From Escherichia phage EO1: a DNA stretch of 64,000 nucleotides. Shown here in pieces: positions 2,474 to 64,000 of this stretch (position 1 is its first letter; every line of letters starts with the position of its first letter). The translations under genes were made by a program, and so were the position numbers. Below the pieces are notes generated by a model. The model was not told the DNA's origin, searched no databases, and saw only the letters and a program-made list of their open reading frames with translations. The stretch lies in sequence record OQ223305.1. The stretch is one strand, 5' to 3'.

Positions 2474-2494
2474 TGATAAATAAAGGAGCTAAAT

Positions 2495-3121
2495 ATGTAT
2501 GAATACAAATTTGATGTGAGAGTTGGTTCTAAAATAATCAACTGTCGCGCATTTACTCTTAAAGAATATCTAGAACTTATTACTGCTAAAAAGAACGGTT
2601 CAGTAGAAGAGATCGTTAAAAAGCTAATCAAAGAATGCACAAATGCAAAAGATTTAAACCGCCAAGAATCAGAACTACTATTGATTCATTTATGGGCACA
2701 TTCTCTTGGAGAAGTTAATCACGAAAACTCCTGGAAGTGCACCTGCGGAACTGAAATACCAACCCATATAAATCTATTACATACACAAATAGATGCACCA
2801 GAAGACCTCTGGTATACACTGGGTGACATTAAAATTAAGTTCCATTACCCTAAAATTTTTGATGATAAAAATATAGCCCACATGATAGTATCATGTATAG
2901 AAACGATTCATGCTAACGGTGAAAGCATTCCAGTTGAAGACTTAAATGAAAAAGAATTGGAAGATTTATATTCTATCATCACAGAGTCAGATATTGTAGC
3001 TATAAAAGATATGCTTTTAAAGCCTACTGTTTATTTGGCTGTTCCAATTAAGTGTCCAGAGTGTGGAAAAACTCACGCTCATGTAATAAGAGGACTCAAA
3101 GAATTCTTTGAGCTATTGTAA
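2495..3121 (+). CDS. 26: Baseplate hub subunit gp26
   Basis: 208 aa, synteny. Confidence 0.8.
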
Positions 3122-43065: not shown

Positions 43066-43095
43066 GTTTACATGCTGATGAGGTAGTGATACTAT
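43066..43095 (+). promoter_or_regulatory. T4-type early promoter (GTTTAC-N18-TACTAT) with stem-loop
   Basis: aagttGTTTACa...tgaTACTAT; flanking stem tgatgag/ctcatca. Confidence 0.55.
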
Positions 43096-43125: not shown

Positions 43126-43383
43126 ATGAAAACTTTCAAAGAGTTTGCTACAAAAACTACTATCACTGAATCTTCTCACGGTATGGAAGTAAAGCTTGGA
43201 ATGGCTTTAGCTGAAGCTGAGCGTCTTTTCTCTCGTATTAAAGAACTTGCTGCTGCAGTCGATCCTTCATCTTTTAAAGGAGACCAAACTAAAGTTAAAG
43301 CACTTTTAGCGTTATGCTCCGATGCAGGAGAAATTGCTAAAAATGGTTCTAAGATGAAGAAACGATTAGAAGATTTAAAATAA
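43126..43383 (+). CDS. Internal protein (IPI-like) with capsid targeting sequence
   Basis: 85 aa; N-terminus MKTFKEFATKTTITE resembles T4 CTS MKTYQEFIAE with an I-x-E gp21 cleavage motif; position of T4 ipI. Confidence 0.65.
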   Translation: MKTFKEFATKTTITESSHGMEVKLGMALAEAERLFSRIKELAAAVDPSSFKGDQTKVKALLALCSDAGEIAKNGSKMKKRLEDLK

Positions 43384-43453: not shown

Positions 43454-43639
43454 ATGAAACGCTGTGAATTAATTCGAAATGTTGCTATTGCAATTTCTGC
43501 TTCTGCTTTTAGTTTTTCAATGTTTGTTGGATTTATATGCGGATTATTGACTACAGCAGAAAATGTTTTTTCACTTGTAGTAGCATTTTTAATTGGTTTA
43601 ATTGCTATCGTTATGGATAAAATTTCTAAAGGTGAATAG
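43454..43639 (+). CDS. Small membrane protein (2 predicted TM helices)
   Basis: 61 aa hydrophobic ORF with RBS gaggagaataaaatg. Confidence 0.5.
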   Translation: MKRCELIRNVAIAISASAFSFSMFVGFICGLLTTAENVFSLVVAFLIGLIAIVMDKISKGE

Positions 43640-43640
43640 A

Positions 43641-44021
43641 ATGTACAAAGTGTATGCGGATTATCAGGCTAATCCATCTGAAAAACCAGGTTGTCAAATT
43701 GGATGGGCTCATGATACTTTGCTTGAAGCAGTAGATGCTGCTCAAAAATTGGGATATAAATATGTAGAGATTGTTCAACCGTCAGGAAAAGTTATTACTC
43801 TTGAAGAGTTCAATAACATTAAACCAAACTTTTTACTTTTTGCAGGTGATAATTATTATCCTCGTGGTGGATATGCTGATTTAATAGCGAAAGCCGCTAC
43901 CGAAGATGAACTCCGTGACATTATCAAAGAAAATGAAAACAAACCAGATTATGGTTCTAATCGCTTTGATTGGTGGCAAATTGTAAATGCCAATACTCAC
44001 ACTATTGTTGATGAAGGCTGA
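43641..44021 (+). CDS. Hypothetical protein
   Basis: ORF 43602-44021 trimmed to Met after upstream stop (MYKVYADYQ...), 126 aa. Confidence 0.55.
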   Translation: MYKVYADYQANPSEKPGCQIGWAHDTLLEAVDAAQKLGYKYVEIVQPSGKVITLEEFNNIKPNFLLFAGDNYYPRGGYADLIAKAATEDELRDIIKENENKPDYGSNRFDWWQIVNANTHTIVDEG

Positions 44022-44648: not shown

Positions 44649-44694
44649 ATTTATGACTCGTCGTGAGACGCTCAGTTCTTTATTAGGGACTGAT

Positions 44695-45303
44695 ATGCAT
44701 TTTTATCTTTATAAAATAACAAATAAAATTAATAATAAAGTTTATATTGGTGTGCATTCTACCGAAAATTTAGATGATGGATATATGGGTTCTGGCAAAT
44801 TATTAAAAAGAGCCCAAGACAAGTATGGTATAGAAAATTTCTCTAAAGAAATATTAGAGTATTTTGATGATAAAGAATCTATGCTTGAAGCCGAGAAAAA
44901 TATTGTCACAGAAGAGTTTTTAAATAGACCAGACGTGTATAATTTAAAACTTGGCGGTGAAGGTGGATGGGACCATATAAATAATTATCCTATGACAGAT
45001 CAGCAACGTGAATTAATTTCATTGGGTGTTAAAAAGGCGCATTCTAACGGAAAATTAAAAGGATGGTCTTCAAATGGATTAATGAAGAATGGCTTTGCTG
45101 GTAAAACTCATTCTCAAGAAGCTAAACGTAAAATAGCAAAAGCAAACGAAGCAAAAGTTTCTGCGGATGAAAGAAAAAGAAGAATAGAAATTTCTAAATT
45201 ATATGATTTTTCTAAGCGTGGTGAATTATCTAAATATGCTAAGCATATTGGCGTAAGTCATACTCAAGCAAAAAGAATTCTAAATCAAATTAACAATATA
45301 TAA
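44695..45303 (+). mobile_element. segB: GIY-YIG homing endonuclease SegB inserted in the tRNA cluster
   Basis: ORF 44653-45303; GIY-YIG motif YLYKITNKINNKVYIGVHS...GYMGSG; start likely the second Met (MHFYLYK). Confidence 0.75.
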
Positions 45304-46373: not shown

Positions 46374-46682
46374 GAAGCCGGGTCGCTACCGGTAAGTCGT
46401 CGGACTGATGTTCCCTGAGTAAGGAATTGCGTTAATAATCTTTGCGTTTATTGATGCCCTCTTACATCACAGCAGAAACGGCGCACCGAATTATCGATTC
46501 GAGGAAATATCTTTGCCGTAAGCCGAGTAGCGTTTTTGACGGAACGTTCGGATATGGTCGAGATATGGCCTTTTAAAAATATTGAGTAGCGTCAACTGCT
46601 TAATAACCGGGTTCGAATCCCGGCGTTTCGTACAAACACTTGCCTTAGCAGGTGGAACCCCGACAAGGTTGCCGCAAGGCTT
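46374..46682 (+). ncRNA. GC-rich ORF-free structured region; candidate stable RNA or degenerate tRNA-like element
   Basis: About 310 nt with no ORF of 60 aa or more on either strand, GC-rich against an AT-rich genome; contains tRNA T-arm-like ccgGGTTCGAATCCcgg and a repeated gagtagcgt motif. Confidence 0.3.
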
Positions 46683-46720
46683 AGCCCCGACCGAAAGGTT
46701 GGGGCTTTTTGGTATAAATA
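46683..46720 (+). terminator. Strong rho-independent terminator (46683-46711) followed directly by late promoter TATAAATA (46713-46720)
   Basis: agccccgacc-gaaa-ggttggggct plus ttttt; then gGTATAAATAtag. Confidence 0.65.
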
Positions 46721-46760
46721 TAGTAGTATATTAAATCCACGAATTAAAACAGGAAATAAG

Positions 46761-47234
46761 ATGAAATCATATACTCAATTTTTAAATGAAGCGGTGTTAA
46801 ATGAAGCATCTAGCACCGAAATTCAAGCTGTCGCAAAAGCAGCCATTGCAGCGGGTAAATATTCTTATAAAGATGCTTCTGATGAATCGCGATTCCAGTT
46901 CGCACGCGACATGAAAGCGGAAGGATTTACGGGAAATGCAGTTAGTATGGCCTGGAAAAGTTTAGTTGCTACTGGCGCTGCTTTTGCAAAGGCTTCGGGT
47001 AAACCTGCTCCTAAAGCAGATCCTAAAGCTGCACAAGAAAAAAATATTGTTAAAGGAATTATCGCTAAATATGAAGCTATCCTTAAAGAGCTTTTAGTAA
47101 TCAAAACCGAAGGCCAAAAGCTAGCTCGTGCTTATAGTTTCAAAGATAACCCACATGCTCATGACCTAGAGTATGTTGAAGATCTCCAAAAAATCATCAA
47201 AGACCGCATTTGGTCTGCTAAACAAATCAAATAA
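46761..47234 (+). CDS. Internal-protein-like protein with capsid targeting sequence
   Basis: 157 aa; N-terminus MKSYTQFLNEAVLNE resembles the T4 CTS (L-x-E cleavage motif); Ala/Lys-rich. Confidence 0.55.
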   Translation: MKSYTQFLNEAVLNEASSTEIQAVAKAAIAAGKYSYKDASDESRFQFARDMKAEGFTGNAVSMAWKSLVATGAAFAKASGKPAPKADPKAAQEKNIVKGIIAKYEAILKELLVIKTEGQKLARAYSFKDNPHAHDLEYVEDLQKIIKDRIWSAKQIK

Positions 47235-47251
47235 CATTCTTAGCCCTAGCC

Positions 47252-47280
47252 GAAAGGTTGGGGCTTTTTGGTATCTAGGC
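47252..47280 (+). terminator. Rho-independent terminator, near-duplicate of the 46683 terminator
   Basis: agccctagc-cgaaa-ggttggggct plus ttttt. Confidence 0.65.
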
Positions 47281-47401: not shown

Positions 47402-47431
47402 GTTTACACCCTTGTCATTCCATGGTACTAT
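47402..47431 (+). promoter_or_regulatory. T4-type early promoter (GTTTAC-N18-TACTAT) plus conserved leader ACAACTATCAACTAC
   Basis: ctGTTTACa...catggTACTATacaactatcaactact. Confidence 0.55.
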
Positions 47432-47474
47432 ACAACTATCAACTACTGATACAGAAAACAACTTGGAGAATGAA

Positions 47475-47738
47475 ATGGATAATTATGGTGAACTGTTCAA
47501 CTTCTTTATGAAATGTGTTTCAGAAGATTTTGGTCGTACAGTGAATGATATTAAAGTTATCGGTCCTGACCATCCGATGTTTGAAACTTACGCAGTAATG
47601 GGTAATGAAGATGGTCAGTGGTATACTGTAAAGGTTGTGATTAACATGTTCACAGCAGAAGGTTATGTTAAACTGTCTTCTAAAGTTTACCATGATAACG
47701 ACGAAATCGCAGAAGAATATTTCAATAATATGAAATAA
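47475..47738 (+). CDS. Hypothetical acidic protein
   Basis: ORF 47412-47738 trimmed to Met after RBS ggagaatgaa (the N-terminal extension is translated promoter and leader); 87 aa. Confidence 0.55.
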   Translation: MDNYGELFNFFMKCVSEDFGRTVNDIKVIGPDHPMFETYAVMGNEDGQWYTVKVVINMFTAEGYVKLSSKVYHDNDEIAEEYFNNMK

Positions 47739-51927: not shown

Positions 51928-52401
51928 ATGAAAACATATCAAGAATTTATTACTGAAGCAGCTATTAATTCTCAAATTATTGCTGAATCTTTTACTGATC
52001 TTTTGAAATTTAAAAAAGGTCAAAAAATCACTGCTGTATTGGATGATGGTACAGAAGTTGAGATGGATGTACAGGGATATAATTATGCAGTAGATGGAAA
52101 ACTGTATAATAAATCTCATGCTAAATTTGATTCATTTGACGACTTTGTTAATACAGTTGAAGATGAAAAAACTCGTCGATCCATTGCAACTGGTGATGCT
52201 AAGGTTCTTATGGCACATGGTCATGAACGCATTCGCGCTAAACAGAATAAAATGGGTGAAGATAATTTTGCATTAGTTGGTTATCAATCTGGTAAACAAA
52301 CTTATGGCTATCAACGTACTGCTACCATGTATAATAAAAATGGTAAAATCGCCTTTGTGAATAGCAAAGGTTCTGTTCAGTATGTCAAATCATTCAAATA
52401 A
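51928..52401 (+). CDS. Internal protein (IPII/IPIII-like) with canonical capsid targeting sequence
   Basis: 157 aa; N-terminus MKTYQEFITE near-identical to T4 CTS MKTYQEFIAE; position of T4 ipII/ipIII. Confidence 0.7.
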   Translation: MKTYQEFITEAAINSQIIAESFTDLLKFKKGQKITAVLDDGTEVEMDVQGYNYAVDGKLYNKSHAKFDSFDDFVNTVEDEKTRRSIATGDAKVLMAHGHERIRAKQNKMGEDNFALVGYQSGKQTYGYQRTATMYNKNGKIAFVNSKGSVQYVKSFK

Positions 52402-62497: not shown

Positions 62498-62527
62498 GTT
62501 TACAAGCATAAAGCTTTATGGTACTAT
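62498..62527 (+). promoter_or_regulatory. T4-type early promoter (GTTTAC-N18-TACTAT) plus conserved leader
   Basis: caaagttGTTTACaagcataaagctttatggTACTATacaactatcaactg. Confidence 0.55.
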
Positions 62528-62561
62528 ACAACTATCAACTGATACGGATTTGGAGAATAAA

Positions 62562-63937: not shown

Positions 63938-63967
63938 GTTTACAAGACTGTTCCTCTGTGGTACTAT
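63938..63967 (+). promoter_or_regulatory. T4-type early promoter (GTTTAC-N18-TACTAT) inside an RBS-sequestering stem-loop
   Basis: GTTTACaagactgttcctctgtggTACTATacaactatcaactacggaggaacag; stem ctgttcctc/gaggaacag. Confidence 0.55.
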
Positions 63968-64000
63968 ACAACTATCAACTACGGAGGAACAGAAAATGAA

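What the first reader, a model, noticed from the sequence alone, without database searches (positions are those of the whole stretch)
46683..47280. Second internal-protein-like cassette flanked by duplicated terminators at a non-canonical location
A 157-aa protein with a CTS-like N-terminus (MKSYTQFLNE) lies between the tRNA cluster and the e.x genes, rather than at the T4 ipI or ipII/ipIII sites. It has its own late promoter (TATAAATA at 46713) and is flanked on both sides by near-identical terminator hairpins (ccgaaaggttggggcttttt at 46691-46711 and 47260-47280). This suggests a mobile promoter-gene-terminator module encoding an additional injected protein.
Basis: partly seen in the sequence, partly recalled or inferred. 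Interest (0 to 1): 0.5.

Follow-up and report, generated by a model that had tools for sequence, protein, structure and literature searches.

The report
Unrecognised T4-like internal-protein cassette locus
A small late gene wedged between two copies of a terminator hairpin in a T4-like phage looks like a capsid-packaged, host-injected "internal protein". It sits at a third, so far unannotated internal-protein site that T2, T4 and T6 happen to lack.

Summary
ORF 46761-47234 (+) encodes a 157-aa basic protein starting MKSYTQFLNE. TATAAATA lies at 46713-46720.

Comparison with T4, T2, T6 and PST shows one hairpin and no gene at this rnaC–e.8 site. The window therefore carries an exact 559-bp unit (late promoter, gene, hairpin) joined at the hairpin.

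The same site holds other cargo elsewhere:
- a 188-aa gene (MKTYAEFLTE…) alone;
- both genes in tandem;
- a 205-aa gene in Dhakavirus.

All three proteins belong to phrog_2280 ("unknown function"). They keep the residues shown experimentally to drive T4 capsid targeting (Y4, F7) and gp21 processing (L/I8, E10).

A 97.5%-identical ortholog (fD1 g140) was found by LC-MS/MS in purified virions, but that dataset has low specificity.

Best reading: a late-expressed, capsid-targeted, gp21-processed internal protein in a terminator-bounded recombinational cassette, probably an anti-defence effector. Packaging, cleavage and injection remain untested. This is a new member and locus of a known kind; every source seen calls it "hypothetical protein".

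The parts
46494..46632 (+). rnaC (species 1 RNA) homolog. It is the last gene of the tRNA/stable-RNA transcription unit and is given as context for the left border.
   Evidence: Mapped from the RB68 annotation (L001 3892-4030; offset from the match). The sequence is nearly identical to T4 rnaC. No Rfam family matched.
46680..46715 (+). Left copy of the 36-nt direct repeat: hairpin 46683-46706 (AGCCCCGACC-GAAA-GGTTGGGGCT), T-run 46707-46711, then GGTAT. It is the terminator of the tRNA/rnaC unit and the left recombination joint.
   Evidence: T4, T2, T6 and PST have this same hairpin as their single copy.
46713..46720 (+). T4-type late promoter motif TATAAATA. It overlaps the end of the repeat (GGTAT|AAATA).
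   Evidence: The same hairpin-T-run-(G/A)GTATAAATA junction precedes the homologous genes in ime09, IME08 (Dhakavirus) and KpV477 (Jiaodavirus); Mosigvirus has AATAAATA. No sigma-70-like site lies between the hairpin and the ATG.
46751..46756 (+). Shine-Dalgarno AGGAAA, 4 nt before the ATG.
   Evidence: Read directly from the sequence.
46761..47234 (+). CDS of 157 aa (17.2 kDa, pI 9.4), member of phrog_2280 and identical to EO1_120 of Escherichia phage EO1. Predicted layout: leader helix, a small 3-helix N-domain (aa 20-78), a Lys/Pro/Ala linker (aa 79-87 in the model; KPAPKADPK) and a long helical hairpin (aa 88-154).
46761..46805 (+). Leader / putative capsid-targeting sequence MKSYTQFLNE|AVLNE|A, with two tandem L-N-E gp21-type cleavage motifs (after E10 and E15).
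   Evidence: Key residues are from PMC9026906. In the AF2 model the leader is a helix (aa 4-13) followed by a disordered stretch (aa 13-17). The leader is the only part similar to T4 IPIII, to the IpIV-like protein and to the B protein.
47239..47274 (+). Right copy of the direct repeat: hairpin 47242-47265 (AGCCCTAGCC-GAAA-GGTTGGGGCT), T-run 47266-47270, then GGTAT. It is the terminator of the cassette and the right recombination joint.
   Evidence: All three differences from the left copy lie in the 5' arm and keep pairing through G-U or A-U, as read from the sequences.
47403..47431 (+). T4-type early promoter (TTTACA-17-TACTAT with TG) of the e.8 homolog (CDS 47475-47738). Given as context for the right border.
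   Evidence: The same region follows the single hairpin in T4. The core 47422-47446 is repeated at 62518 and 63959 in the window.

Best explanation
The 559-bp unit from about 46716 to 47274 is a self-contained late-gene cassette. It sits at the terminator that ends the tRNA/rnaC transcription unit.

**Proposed mechanism**
1. The upstream hairpin stops early and middle transcription coming from the tRNA operon (inferred).
2. The TATAAATA that abuts its T-run starts late transcription, and the second hairpin ends it (inferred from motifs and their conservation).
3. The product is a basic 17-kDa protein. Its first 10 residues (MKSYTQFLNE) act as a capsid-targeting sequence that docks it onto the scaffolding core of the assembling prohead (inferred).
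4. The prohead protease gp21 then cuts after E10 and/or E15 (L-x-E motifs), leaving a mature protein of about 15.5-16 kDa inside the head with the DNA (inferred).
5. That protein is ejected into the next host, where it most likely neutralises a first-line defence. This follows T4 Ip1, Ip2 and Ip3, each of which blocks a different GmrSD type IV restriction enzyme (analogy only).

**Evolution of the site.** The cassette is gained, lost or swapped by homologous recombination within the shared hairpin 3' arm and T-run (GGTTGGGGCTTTTT). This makes the rnaC–e.8 gap a third polymorphic internal-protein locus. It holds paralogous phrog_2280 genes, which I call A (this one), B and C.

**Shown versus inferred.** Shown here: the anatomy, the exact indel, the alternative cargoes, the family relationship and conservation of the leader. 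Inferred: promoter and terminator activity, packaging, cleavage, injection and the target.
For: **Leader**
- Y4, F7, L8 and E10 match the residues that control targeting (4, 7) and processing (8, 10) in IPIII (PMC9026906).
- The motif is about 400-fold over chance in the window.
- The leader stays conserved across family members whose mature parts are only 25-29% identical or not detectably similar: A vs C is 29% (E=1e-8), C vs B is 25% (E=1e-3), and A vs B shows leader similarity only.
- The leader is the only region similar to T4 IPIII and to the window's IpIV-like protein. That is the defining pattern of T-even Ips (PMC12373910).

**Protein properties**
- A, B and C all match phrog_2280 over their full length, E=1e-54 to 1e-59.
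- The protein is basic, pI 9.4.
- Relatives occur only in T4-like phages, among 1.8 billion representative proteins.

**Expression signals**
- TATAAATA directly after the hairpin T-run is conserved in Tequatrovirus, Dhakavirus and Jiaodavirus.
- There is no early-promoter-like site in front of the gene.

**Cassette structure**
- The site is empty in T4, T2, T6, PST and phi25-307.
- It holds A alone in the window, RB68 and fPS-2; B alone in Pu-Krd-SF7 and SP1; and A+B in ime09 and PhAPEC2.
- All junctions fall at the end of a hairpin T-run.

**Virion evidence**
- fD1 g140, 97.5% identical (H44), is flagged as a particle-associated protein at the strict threshold in LC-MS/MS of purified virions (PMC8309999).
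Against: - No direct evidence exists for gp21 cleavage or injection.
- The fD1 proteome also flags clearly non-structural proteins (DenV, lysozyme, NudE, thymidine kinase; 113-137 of 277 gene products). Detection therefore adds only modest weight.
- The leader differs from the canonical MKTYQEFIAE at 5 of 10 positions (S3, T5, Q6, L8, N9). tblastn with protein A does not pick up known ip gene starts, whereas B and C do.
- TATAAATA occurs by chance fairly often in this AT-rich DNA, and the Mosigvirus and B cassettes have only AATAAATA.
- No annotation source names the protein an internal protein.
Confidence: 0.65

Rival explanations
1. It is a late cytoplasmic accessory protein that is not packaged. 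On this reading the CTS-like start is a relic of recombination within the conserved 5' ends of ip genes, or simply a well-translated N-terminus, and has no targeting role.
For: - Half of the leader residues differ from the canonical CTS, and protein A's leader does not retrieve known ip genes by tblastn.
- The virion MS evidence is of low specificity.
- All databases call it hypothetical.
Against: - The four functionally mapped CTS positions are all retained.
- They stay conserved across A, B, C and the Klebsiella and Yersinia-phage homologs while the rest of the protein diverges to 25-40% identity.
- A relic would not be expected to stay under such selection.
- Late-only expression fits head assembly.
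Confidence: 0.15
2. It is a packaged structural or DNA-condensing head component, either a scaffold-core accessory or a histone-like counter-ion for packaged DNA. On this reading it is not an anti-defence effector, and it may or may not be ejected.
For: - The protein is basic (pI 9.4) and has a Lys/Pro/Ala-rich linker (KPAPKADPKAAQEK).
- In the IME08 paralog this linker expands to about 45 residues of KPA/AKP repeats, reminiscent of H1/AlgP-type DNA-binding tails.
- The fold is all-helical with a long coiled hairpin.
Against: - The gene is dispensable: T2, T4, T6 and PST lack all phrog_2280 genes at this site.
- It is patchily distributed and swapped within genera, which is the behaviour of adaptive accessory genes rather than structural ones.
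- T4 Ip1-3 are also small packaged proteins, and all three proved to be inhibitors of type IV restriction enzymes (PMC12373910).
Confidence: 0.12
3. The duplicated hairpins are independent regulatory terminators kept similar by selection, not recombination scars. On this reading the gene is an ancestral resident that T4-type phages simply deleted, so there is no cassette mobility.
For: - The gene family occupies the same syntenic site in four genera, so it is old.
- The occupied state is the majority.
- A deletion between the two repeats would give exactly the T4 sequence.
Against: - The repeat extends beyond the structure: the 25-nt exact core includes GGTAT after the T-run.
- Empty, A, B and A+B states occur side by side within both Tequatrovirus and Mosigvirus. 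This needs repeated exchange, not one loss.
- The B-only state joins the rnaC hairpin directly to the B leader region (AGTTTGAATCAC). In A+B phages that sequence follows the second hairpin. Exchange at the hairpin predicts exactly this.
- Loss and gain are not mutually exclusive.
Confidence: 0.1

Closest known systems
T4 internal proteins IPI, IPII and IPIII (Ip1-3), and the polymorphic Ip4-Ip10+ of other T-even phages (Repoila et al. 1994 as cited in PMC12373910; Mullaney & Black 1996 as cited in PMC9026906)
   Same: - A small, basic, non-essential protein with a conserved N-terminal leader: M-K-S/T-Y/F-x-E/Q-F-(I/L)-x-E.
- Otherwise unrelated mature parts.
- An L/I-x-E protease motif at the end of the leader.
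- Presence/absence and swapping between close relatives.
- The window also carries classical examples: an Ip5-like gene at 43126-43383 (phrog_3499) and an IpIV-like gene at 51928-52401 (phrog_3155).
   Different: - A different locus (rnaC–e.8) from the two recognised Ip loci (57B–tRNA.4, and next to e/denV).
- A different protein family (phrog_2280, unannotated).
- It is driven by its own late promoter directly behind a terminator, whereas the ipI-site gene has an early promoter (43067-43095).
- The leader carries a duplicated cleavage motif (LNEAVLNEA).
- Packaging and processing have not been demonstrated.
PeSL (promoter-early stem-loop) cassettes of T4-type phages (Arbiol et al. 2010, PMC2839356; Comeau et al. 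2014, PMC4122927)
   Same: - A variable ORF bracketed by repeated stem-loop/promoter motifs.
- Close relatives differ by exactly the bracketed unit and retain a single, possibly chimeric, motif.
- The proposed mechanism is recombination between the flanking motifs.
- The downstream border here (hairpin, then the early promoter TTTACA-N17-TACTAT of e.8) matches the PST/T4 PeSL promoter consensus TTTACW-N17-TAYWAT.
   Different: - The 5' motif of this cassette is a stem-loop plus a late promoter (TATAAATA), not an early one.
- The shared recombination core is the terminator's 3' arm and T-run rather than the AT-rich promoter region.
- Minicircles were not tested.
RB69ORF149c-like protein (cassette B) and IME08 orf129 (cassette C)
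   Same: - The same PHROG (phrog_2280).
- The same site and the same leader.
- The same three-part layout: N-domain, K/P/A linker, C-terminal helical hairpin.
   Different: - Only 25-29% identical to each other or to A, or not detectably similar to A outside the leader.
- B ends with a different hairpin (CCCTATCTAAATGATAGGG).
- B is frameshifted in RB69 itself (H189).

Membership tests
T-even internal proteins (CTS-bearing, gp21-processed, injected) | N-terminal capsid-targeting sequence with the targeting residues at positions 4 and 7 (Y/F and F in IPIII) | tested here: met
   MKSYTQFLNE has Y4 and F7. The criterion comes from PMC9026906. The motif gives 2 hits against 0.005 expected in the window.
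T-even internal proteins (CTS-bearing, gp21-processed, injected) | Prohead-protease motif (L/I)-x-E at leader positions 8-10 | tested here: met
   L8-N9-E10, repeated at L13-N14-E15. The motif is conserved in A, B and C and in the Klebsiella and Yersinia-phage homologs.
T-even internal proteins (CTS-bearing, gp21-processed, injected) | Similarity to other Ips confined to the leader | tested here: met
   hhalign and BLASTP against T4 IPIII, the IpIV-like protein and B align only about the first 12 residues.
T-even internal proteins (CTS-bearing, gp21-processed, injected) | Physical presence in the mature virion | tested here: inconclusive
   fD1 g140 (97.5% identical) is flagged as particle-associated by LC-MS/MS. 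So are many non-structural proteins in that dataset (PMC8309999).
T-even internal proteins (CTS-bearing, gp21-processed, injected) | gp21-dependent removal of the leader, and ejection into the host | not testable with these tools
   This needs semi-tryptic MS or N-terminal sequencing of the virion protein, and infection assays.
T-even internal proteins (CTS-bearing, gp21-processed, injected) | Location in one of the two recognised Ip loci (57B–tRNA.4, or beside e/denV) | tested here: not met
   The gene lies between rnaC and e.8. 'The two Ip loci' is the wording of PMC12373910. Location is a habit of the family rather than a functional requirement.
PeSL cassettes | Variable ORF flanked on both sides by a repeated stem-loop motif, with close relatives differing by exactly that unit | tested here: met
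   The window differs from T4, T2, T6 and PST by a 559-bp unit bounded by the 36-nt repeat.
PeSL cassettes | The stem-loop is coupled to a sigma-70-type early promoter in front of the ORF | tested here: not met
   No early-promoter-like site lies between 46716 and 46760; a late TATAAATA is present instead. The downstream border does have the early promoter, but it belongs to e.8.
PeSL cassettes | Excision as minicircles by recombination between the flanking motifs | not testable with these tools
   This requires inverse PCR on infected cells, as in PMC2839356.
phrog_2280 | Full-length match to the family profile | tested here: met
   E=1.4e-59 over residues 1-157. B gives 1.2e-53 and C gives 4.9e-59.
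Autonomous mobile element (homing endonuclease gene, transposon) | Encodes its own endonuclease, transposase or recombinase | tested here: not met
   The unit holds a single ORF with no Pfam or NCBIfam enzyme domain.

The most novel reading that the evidence does not exclude
The rnaC–e.8 gap is a third, previously unrecognised internal-protein locus of the Tevenvirinae. Its phrog_2280 paralogs (A, B, C) are injected inhibitors, each specific for a different first-line host defence. Candidates include GmrSD/type IV restriction variants for which no Ip partner was found among Ip1-10. T2, T4 and T6 naturally lack all of these genes, so expressing A, B or C in trans should widen the host range of those phages on particular wild E. 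coli strains.
Probability: 0.3. Interest if true: 0.65.

Novelty: new member of a known kind. Interest (0 to 1): 0.45.

Why it matters
Internal proteins are the only phage anti-defence factors delivered before any phage gene is expressed. Ip1, Ip2 and Ip3 of T4 each disarm a different GmrSD type IV restriction enzyme (PMC12373910), and that work treats T-even phages as having two Ip loci.

A third locus, occupied in most sequenced Tequatroviruses and present in three further genera, would add two or three families of candidate injected inhibitors. These are currently labelled 'hypothetical' in hundreds of genomes, many of them therapeutic-phage candidates.

The three laboratory T-evens lack the locus. 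They therefore provide clean gain-of-function backgrounds for testing it.

The terminator-plus-late-promoter junction also extends the PeSL idea, in which regulatory motifs act as portable recombination joints, from early to late transcription units.

Tried and rejected
- **Domain searches.** Pfam and NCBIfam gave only sub-threshold noise.
- **Exhaustive phmmer.** Hits to 750-2300-aa proteins looked like a repeated domain. They are a chance match of 'AAGSYSYK' inside Ig-like repeats and were rejected.
- **IMG/VR hairpin scan.** An exact scan for the hairpin found only 2 loci and was not useful for a census.
- **Rfam.** Nothing matched the hairpins or rnaC/rnaD.
- **Literature searches.** Searches for ORF names (RB32ORF132c etc.) and for Ip9-Ip13 returned unrelated papers.
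- **Papers that could not be used.**
  - The fPS-2, ACG-C40 and RB69 papers hold no virion proteome for this gene.
  - The SH7 proteome found only 13 proteins.
  - Repoila 1994 and the AR1 paper are not in the library.
  - The supplement of PMC12373910 gives no sequences for Ip4-10, so I could not rule out by sequence that one of them equals this protein. The empty site in T2, T4, T6 and PST, and the uniform 'hypothetical' labels, argue against it.
- **Autonomous mobile element.** Considered and rejected: the unit encodes no enzyme.
- **Homology to the second 157-aa CTS gene.** I checked whether the gene at 51928 is a homolog. It is not, apart from the leader.

Full report
**What is there**

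The window is a Tequatrovirus. The 801 bp around the finding are 97-98% identical to phages such as teqhal, slur02/04, wV7, RB51 and RB68. The protein is 100% identical to EO1_120 of Escherichia phage EO1.

ORF 46761-47234 (+) encodes 157 aa beginning MKSYTQFLNEAVLNEASS. It follows ten tRNA genes, a 116-aa ORF, and the rnaD and rnaC stable RNAs (mapped from RB68). It precedes the e.8 homolog, whose ATG is at 47475.

A 36-nt direct repeat brackets the gene at 46680-46715 and 47239-47274 (92% identity, with an exact 25-nt core). No shuffle of the window gave two such matches. Each copy is a 10-bp stem with a GAAA loop, five T's and GGTAT. The folding energies are -20.3 and -18.3 kcal/mol, and these are the two best terminator-like sites in 11 kb.

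The three differences between the copies all lie in the 5' arm. All three keep the pair (C-G to U-G, G-U to A-U, A-U to G-U), so the structure itself is under selection.

TATAAATA sits at 46713-46720 and overlaps the end of the left repeat. An AGGAAA Shine-Dalgarno lies 4 nt before the ATG.

**The cassette is a discrete unit**

T4 has no gene between rnaC and e.8. Its sequence reads …TTAGCCCCGACCGAAAGGTTGGGGCTTTTTGGTAT|CTAAGCCTTTCCAG…. That is one hairpin followed directly by the sequence which, in the window, follows the second hairpin. T2, T6, PST and the Mosigvirus phi25-307 are the same.

The window therefore differs from these phages by exactly 559 bp: late promoter, gene and one hairpin, joined at the hairpin.

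The same site carries other cargo in other phages.

| State at the rnaC–e.8 site | Phages |
|---|---|
| Empty (one hairpin, no gene) | T4, T2, T6, PST (Tequatrovirus); phi25-307 (Mosigvirus) |
| A only (157 aa, MKSYTQFLNE…) | the window, RB68, fPS-2 (Tequatrovirus) |
| B only (188 aa, MKTYAEFLTEAAK…; RB69ORF149c-like, ending in a different hairpin) | Pu-Krd-SF7, SP1 (Tequatrovirus) |
| A then B in tandem | ime09 (Tequatrovirus); PhAPEC2 (Mosigvirus) |
| C (205 aa, MKTYNEFLNESVLTEAG…) behind hairpin-TTTTTT-GTATAAATA | IME08 (Dhakavirus) |
| Homolog MKFKEFLAEAS… behind a different hairpin + AGTATAAATA (interrupted by an in-frame TAG in KpV477, intact in KP01) | KpV477 (Jiaodavirus) |

Every junction falls at the end of a hairpin T-run. 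What follows is GGTATCTAGG (the e.8 leader region), (G/A)GTATAAATA (cassette A) or AGTTTGAATCAC (cassette B).

Empty, A, B and A+B states coexist within Tequatrovirus. Empty, A+B and a frameshifted B (RB69) coexist within Mosigvirus. This patchiness points to repeated exchange rather than one ancient event.

By count, 511 phage records hold a homolog of A and 165 hold B. Of 675 records matching the region, 439 cover at least 80% of it, which requires the A cassette. The occupied state is thus the common one, and the three classical T-evens are the exceptions.

**Is it an internal protein?**

The review of Black's work (PMC9026906) summarises the Mullaney & Black mutagenesis of the 10-residue IPIII capsid-targeting sequence. 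Residues 4 and 7 carry the targeting; residues 8 and 10 carry the processing.

The present leader has Y4, F7, L8 and E10, and a second L-N-E five residues later. A pattern built on these positions hits the six-frame translation of the window twice. The hits are this ORF and the IpIV-like gene at 51928. Shuffles give 0.005.

The leader is conserved throughout the family:
- MKSYAEFLTE|Q
- MKTYNEFLNE|SVLTE|A
- MKTYAEFLTE|A
- MLKFNEFLAE|G
- MKFKEFLAE|A

Meanwhile the mature parts drop to 25-40% identity.

Against T4 IPIII, the IpIV-like protein and B, only the first ~12 residues of the A-family profile align. [quoted passage not shown]

A, B and C nevertheless all match one PHROG, phrog_2280 ('unknown function'), over their full length. 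They are divergent paralogs or alleles. The window's two classical Ip genes fall instead in PHROGs labelled internal virion/head protein.

Other properties:
- The protein is basic, pI 9.4.
- The AF2 model (pLDDT 73) is all-helical. The leader forms a helix, followed by a disordered stretch at residues 13-17 where cleavage is predicted. Then come a small three-helix domain, a KPAPKADPK linker and a long helical hairpin.
- Exhaustive searches find relatives only in T4-like phages.

**Experimental evidence from the literature**

The virion LC-MS/MS study of Yersinia phage fD1 (PMC8309999) lists g140 as a 'PPAP' (phage particle-associated protein) at the strict threshold. g140 is 157 aa, sits at the same position and is marked as absent from T4. 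It is 97.5% identical to the window protein (H44).

That preparation also yielded 113-137 of the 277 phage gene products and 672 host proteins. Among the phage proteins were DenV, lysozyme, NudE and thymidine kinase. The result shows that the protein is made and is compatible with packaging, but it does not prove packaging. Only fully tryptic peptides were searched, so processing was not addressed.

**Expression**

No sigma-70-like site lies between the left hairpin and the ATG. The ipI-site gene at 43126, by contrast, has a T4-type early promoter (43067-43095).

TATAAATA alone is weak evidence: the window has 25 against about 10 expected. Its position immediately after the terminator T-run recurs in three genera, however. 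Mosigvirus A and the B cassettes carry AATAAATA instead.

I infer late-only transcription, insulated from the tRNA operon by the upstream hairpin. That timing would suit a prohead-core passenger.

**Mechanism and rivals**

*Best explanation (confidence about 0.65).* This is a late-expressed, CTS-targeted, gp21-trimmed internal protein carried in a cassette. The cassette is exchanged by homologous recombination in the hairpin 3' arm and T-run.

*Function.* The likely function is an injected anti-defence factor, by analogy with Ip1-3 and GmrSD (PMC12373910) and with IPIII and ECOR17 (Srikant et al. preprint, 10.1101/2022.04.14.488369). This last step is analogy only; I would put it at roughly 0.35-0.4.

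*Rivals.*
- A non-packaged late protein with a relic leader (0.15).
- A packaged DNA-condensing or structural passenger rather than an effector (0.12). The K/P/A linker, which expands to about 45 residues in IME08, favours some DNA affinity.
- Pure ancestral residence with simple loss in T4-type phages and no exchange (0.1).

The direction of the T4/window difference cannot be decided from the junction. A crossover in the shared 25-nt core gives the same product either way.

**Relation to known systems and novelty**

Polymorphic Ip cassettes with a shared leader date from Repoila et al. 1994, cited in PMC12373910. Stem-loop/promoter motifs as recombination joints (PeSLs) are also known (PMC2839356, PMC4122927).

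What I could not find described is this site as an Ip locus, or phrog_2280 as an Ip family:
- Curated annotations that do name Ip genes leave it 'hypothetical' (RB68). PST, whose annotation also names Ip genes, has the site empty.
- All cluster members read are 'hypothetical protein'.
- The 2025 study speaks of 'the two Ip loci' and tested Ip1-10.

The likely reason is that T2, T4 and T6 all have the empty site.

The cassette also differs from a canonical PeSL in pairing the stem-loop with a late promoter rather than an early one.

I class it as a new member (family and locus) of a known kind, of moderate interest. It is ordinary in principle. It is still useful, because it nominates widespread, testable candidates for injected anti-defence proteins.

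Noticed in passing
window 51928-52401 (+): A second 157-aa CTS gene (MKTYQEFITE|AA…) lies directly after denV. It matches phrog_3155 'internal virion protein' and corresponds to IpIV of phage PST and 'head protein' g129 of fD1. The order here is e–denV–ipIV, whereas T4 has e–ipIII–ipII–denV. It is unrelated to the finding's protein apart from the leader.
   Followed up: partly
window 43126-43383 (+), promoter 43067-43095: An Ip5-like 85-aa internal protein (MKTFKEFATKTTITE…, phrog_3499) sits at the classical ipI site. It has its own T4-type early promoter, in contrast to the late-only cassette at 46761.
   Followed up: partly
L014 (T2), L015 (T6), L002 (T4), L008 (PST): rnaC–e.8 gap: All three classical T-even phages and PST have the empty site (one hairpin, no phrog_2280 gene). 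This probably explains why the locus is missing from the internal-protein literature.
   Followed up: yes
window 46782-46808 (aa 8-16): The leader carries a tandem duplication of the cleavage motif (LNEA-V-LNEA). Mosigvirus orthologs have a single FLTE|Q. IME08 C and some A variants have FLNE|SVLTE|A. This may give two cuts and smaller leader fragments.
   Followed up: no
L011 (IME08) 482-1096; window aa 80-93: The Lys/Pro/Ala linker (KPAPKADPKAAQEK) expands to about 45 residues of KPA/AKP repeats in the Dhakavirus paralog. It resembles histone-H1/AlgP-type DNA-binding tails, and gave only a weak TonB Pro-rich hit in NCBIfam.
   Followed up: no
protein P0013 (94 aa, a 2.9-kb assembled contig): A chimeric ORF joins a tRNA.3-like N-terminus (compare window 43602-44021) to the last ~31 residues of the A protein. 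This implies a deletion that removed the whole tRNA cluster, rnaC/rnaD and most of gene A in some phage.
   Followed up: no
L006 (Klebsiella phage KpV477) about 2490-3030: The Jiaodavirus homolog is interrupted by an in-frame TAG and is annotated as two short CDSs. The ortholog in phage KP01 (P0010, 177 aa) is intact. RB69's copy of cassette B is likewise split into ORF149c and ORF148c. Pseudogenisation appears to recur at this locus.
   Followed up: no
window 47422-47446, 62518-62540, 63959-63982: The core of the e.8 early promoter (-10 and start region) is repeated exactly (23-24 nt) at two other places in the window. These are typical conserved T4 early-promoter/PeSL-type repeats and could also serve as recombination joints.
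   Followed up: no
window 44653-45303 (+): A SegB-like GIY-YIG homing-endonuclease ORF (216 aa) is inserted between tRNA-Gly and tRNA-Ser. The cluster has 10 tRNAs, including Met, Tyr, Asn and His, which T4 lacks.
   Followed up: no
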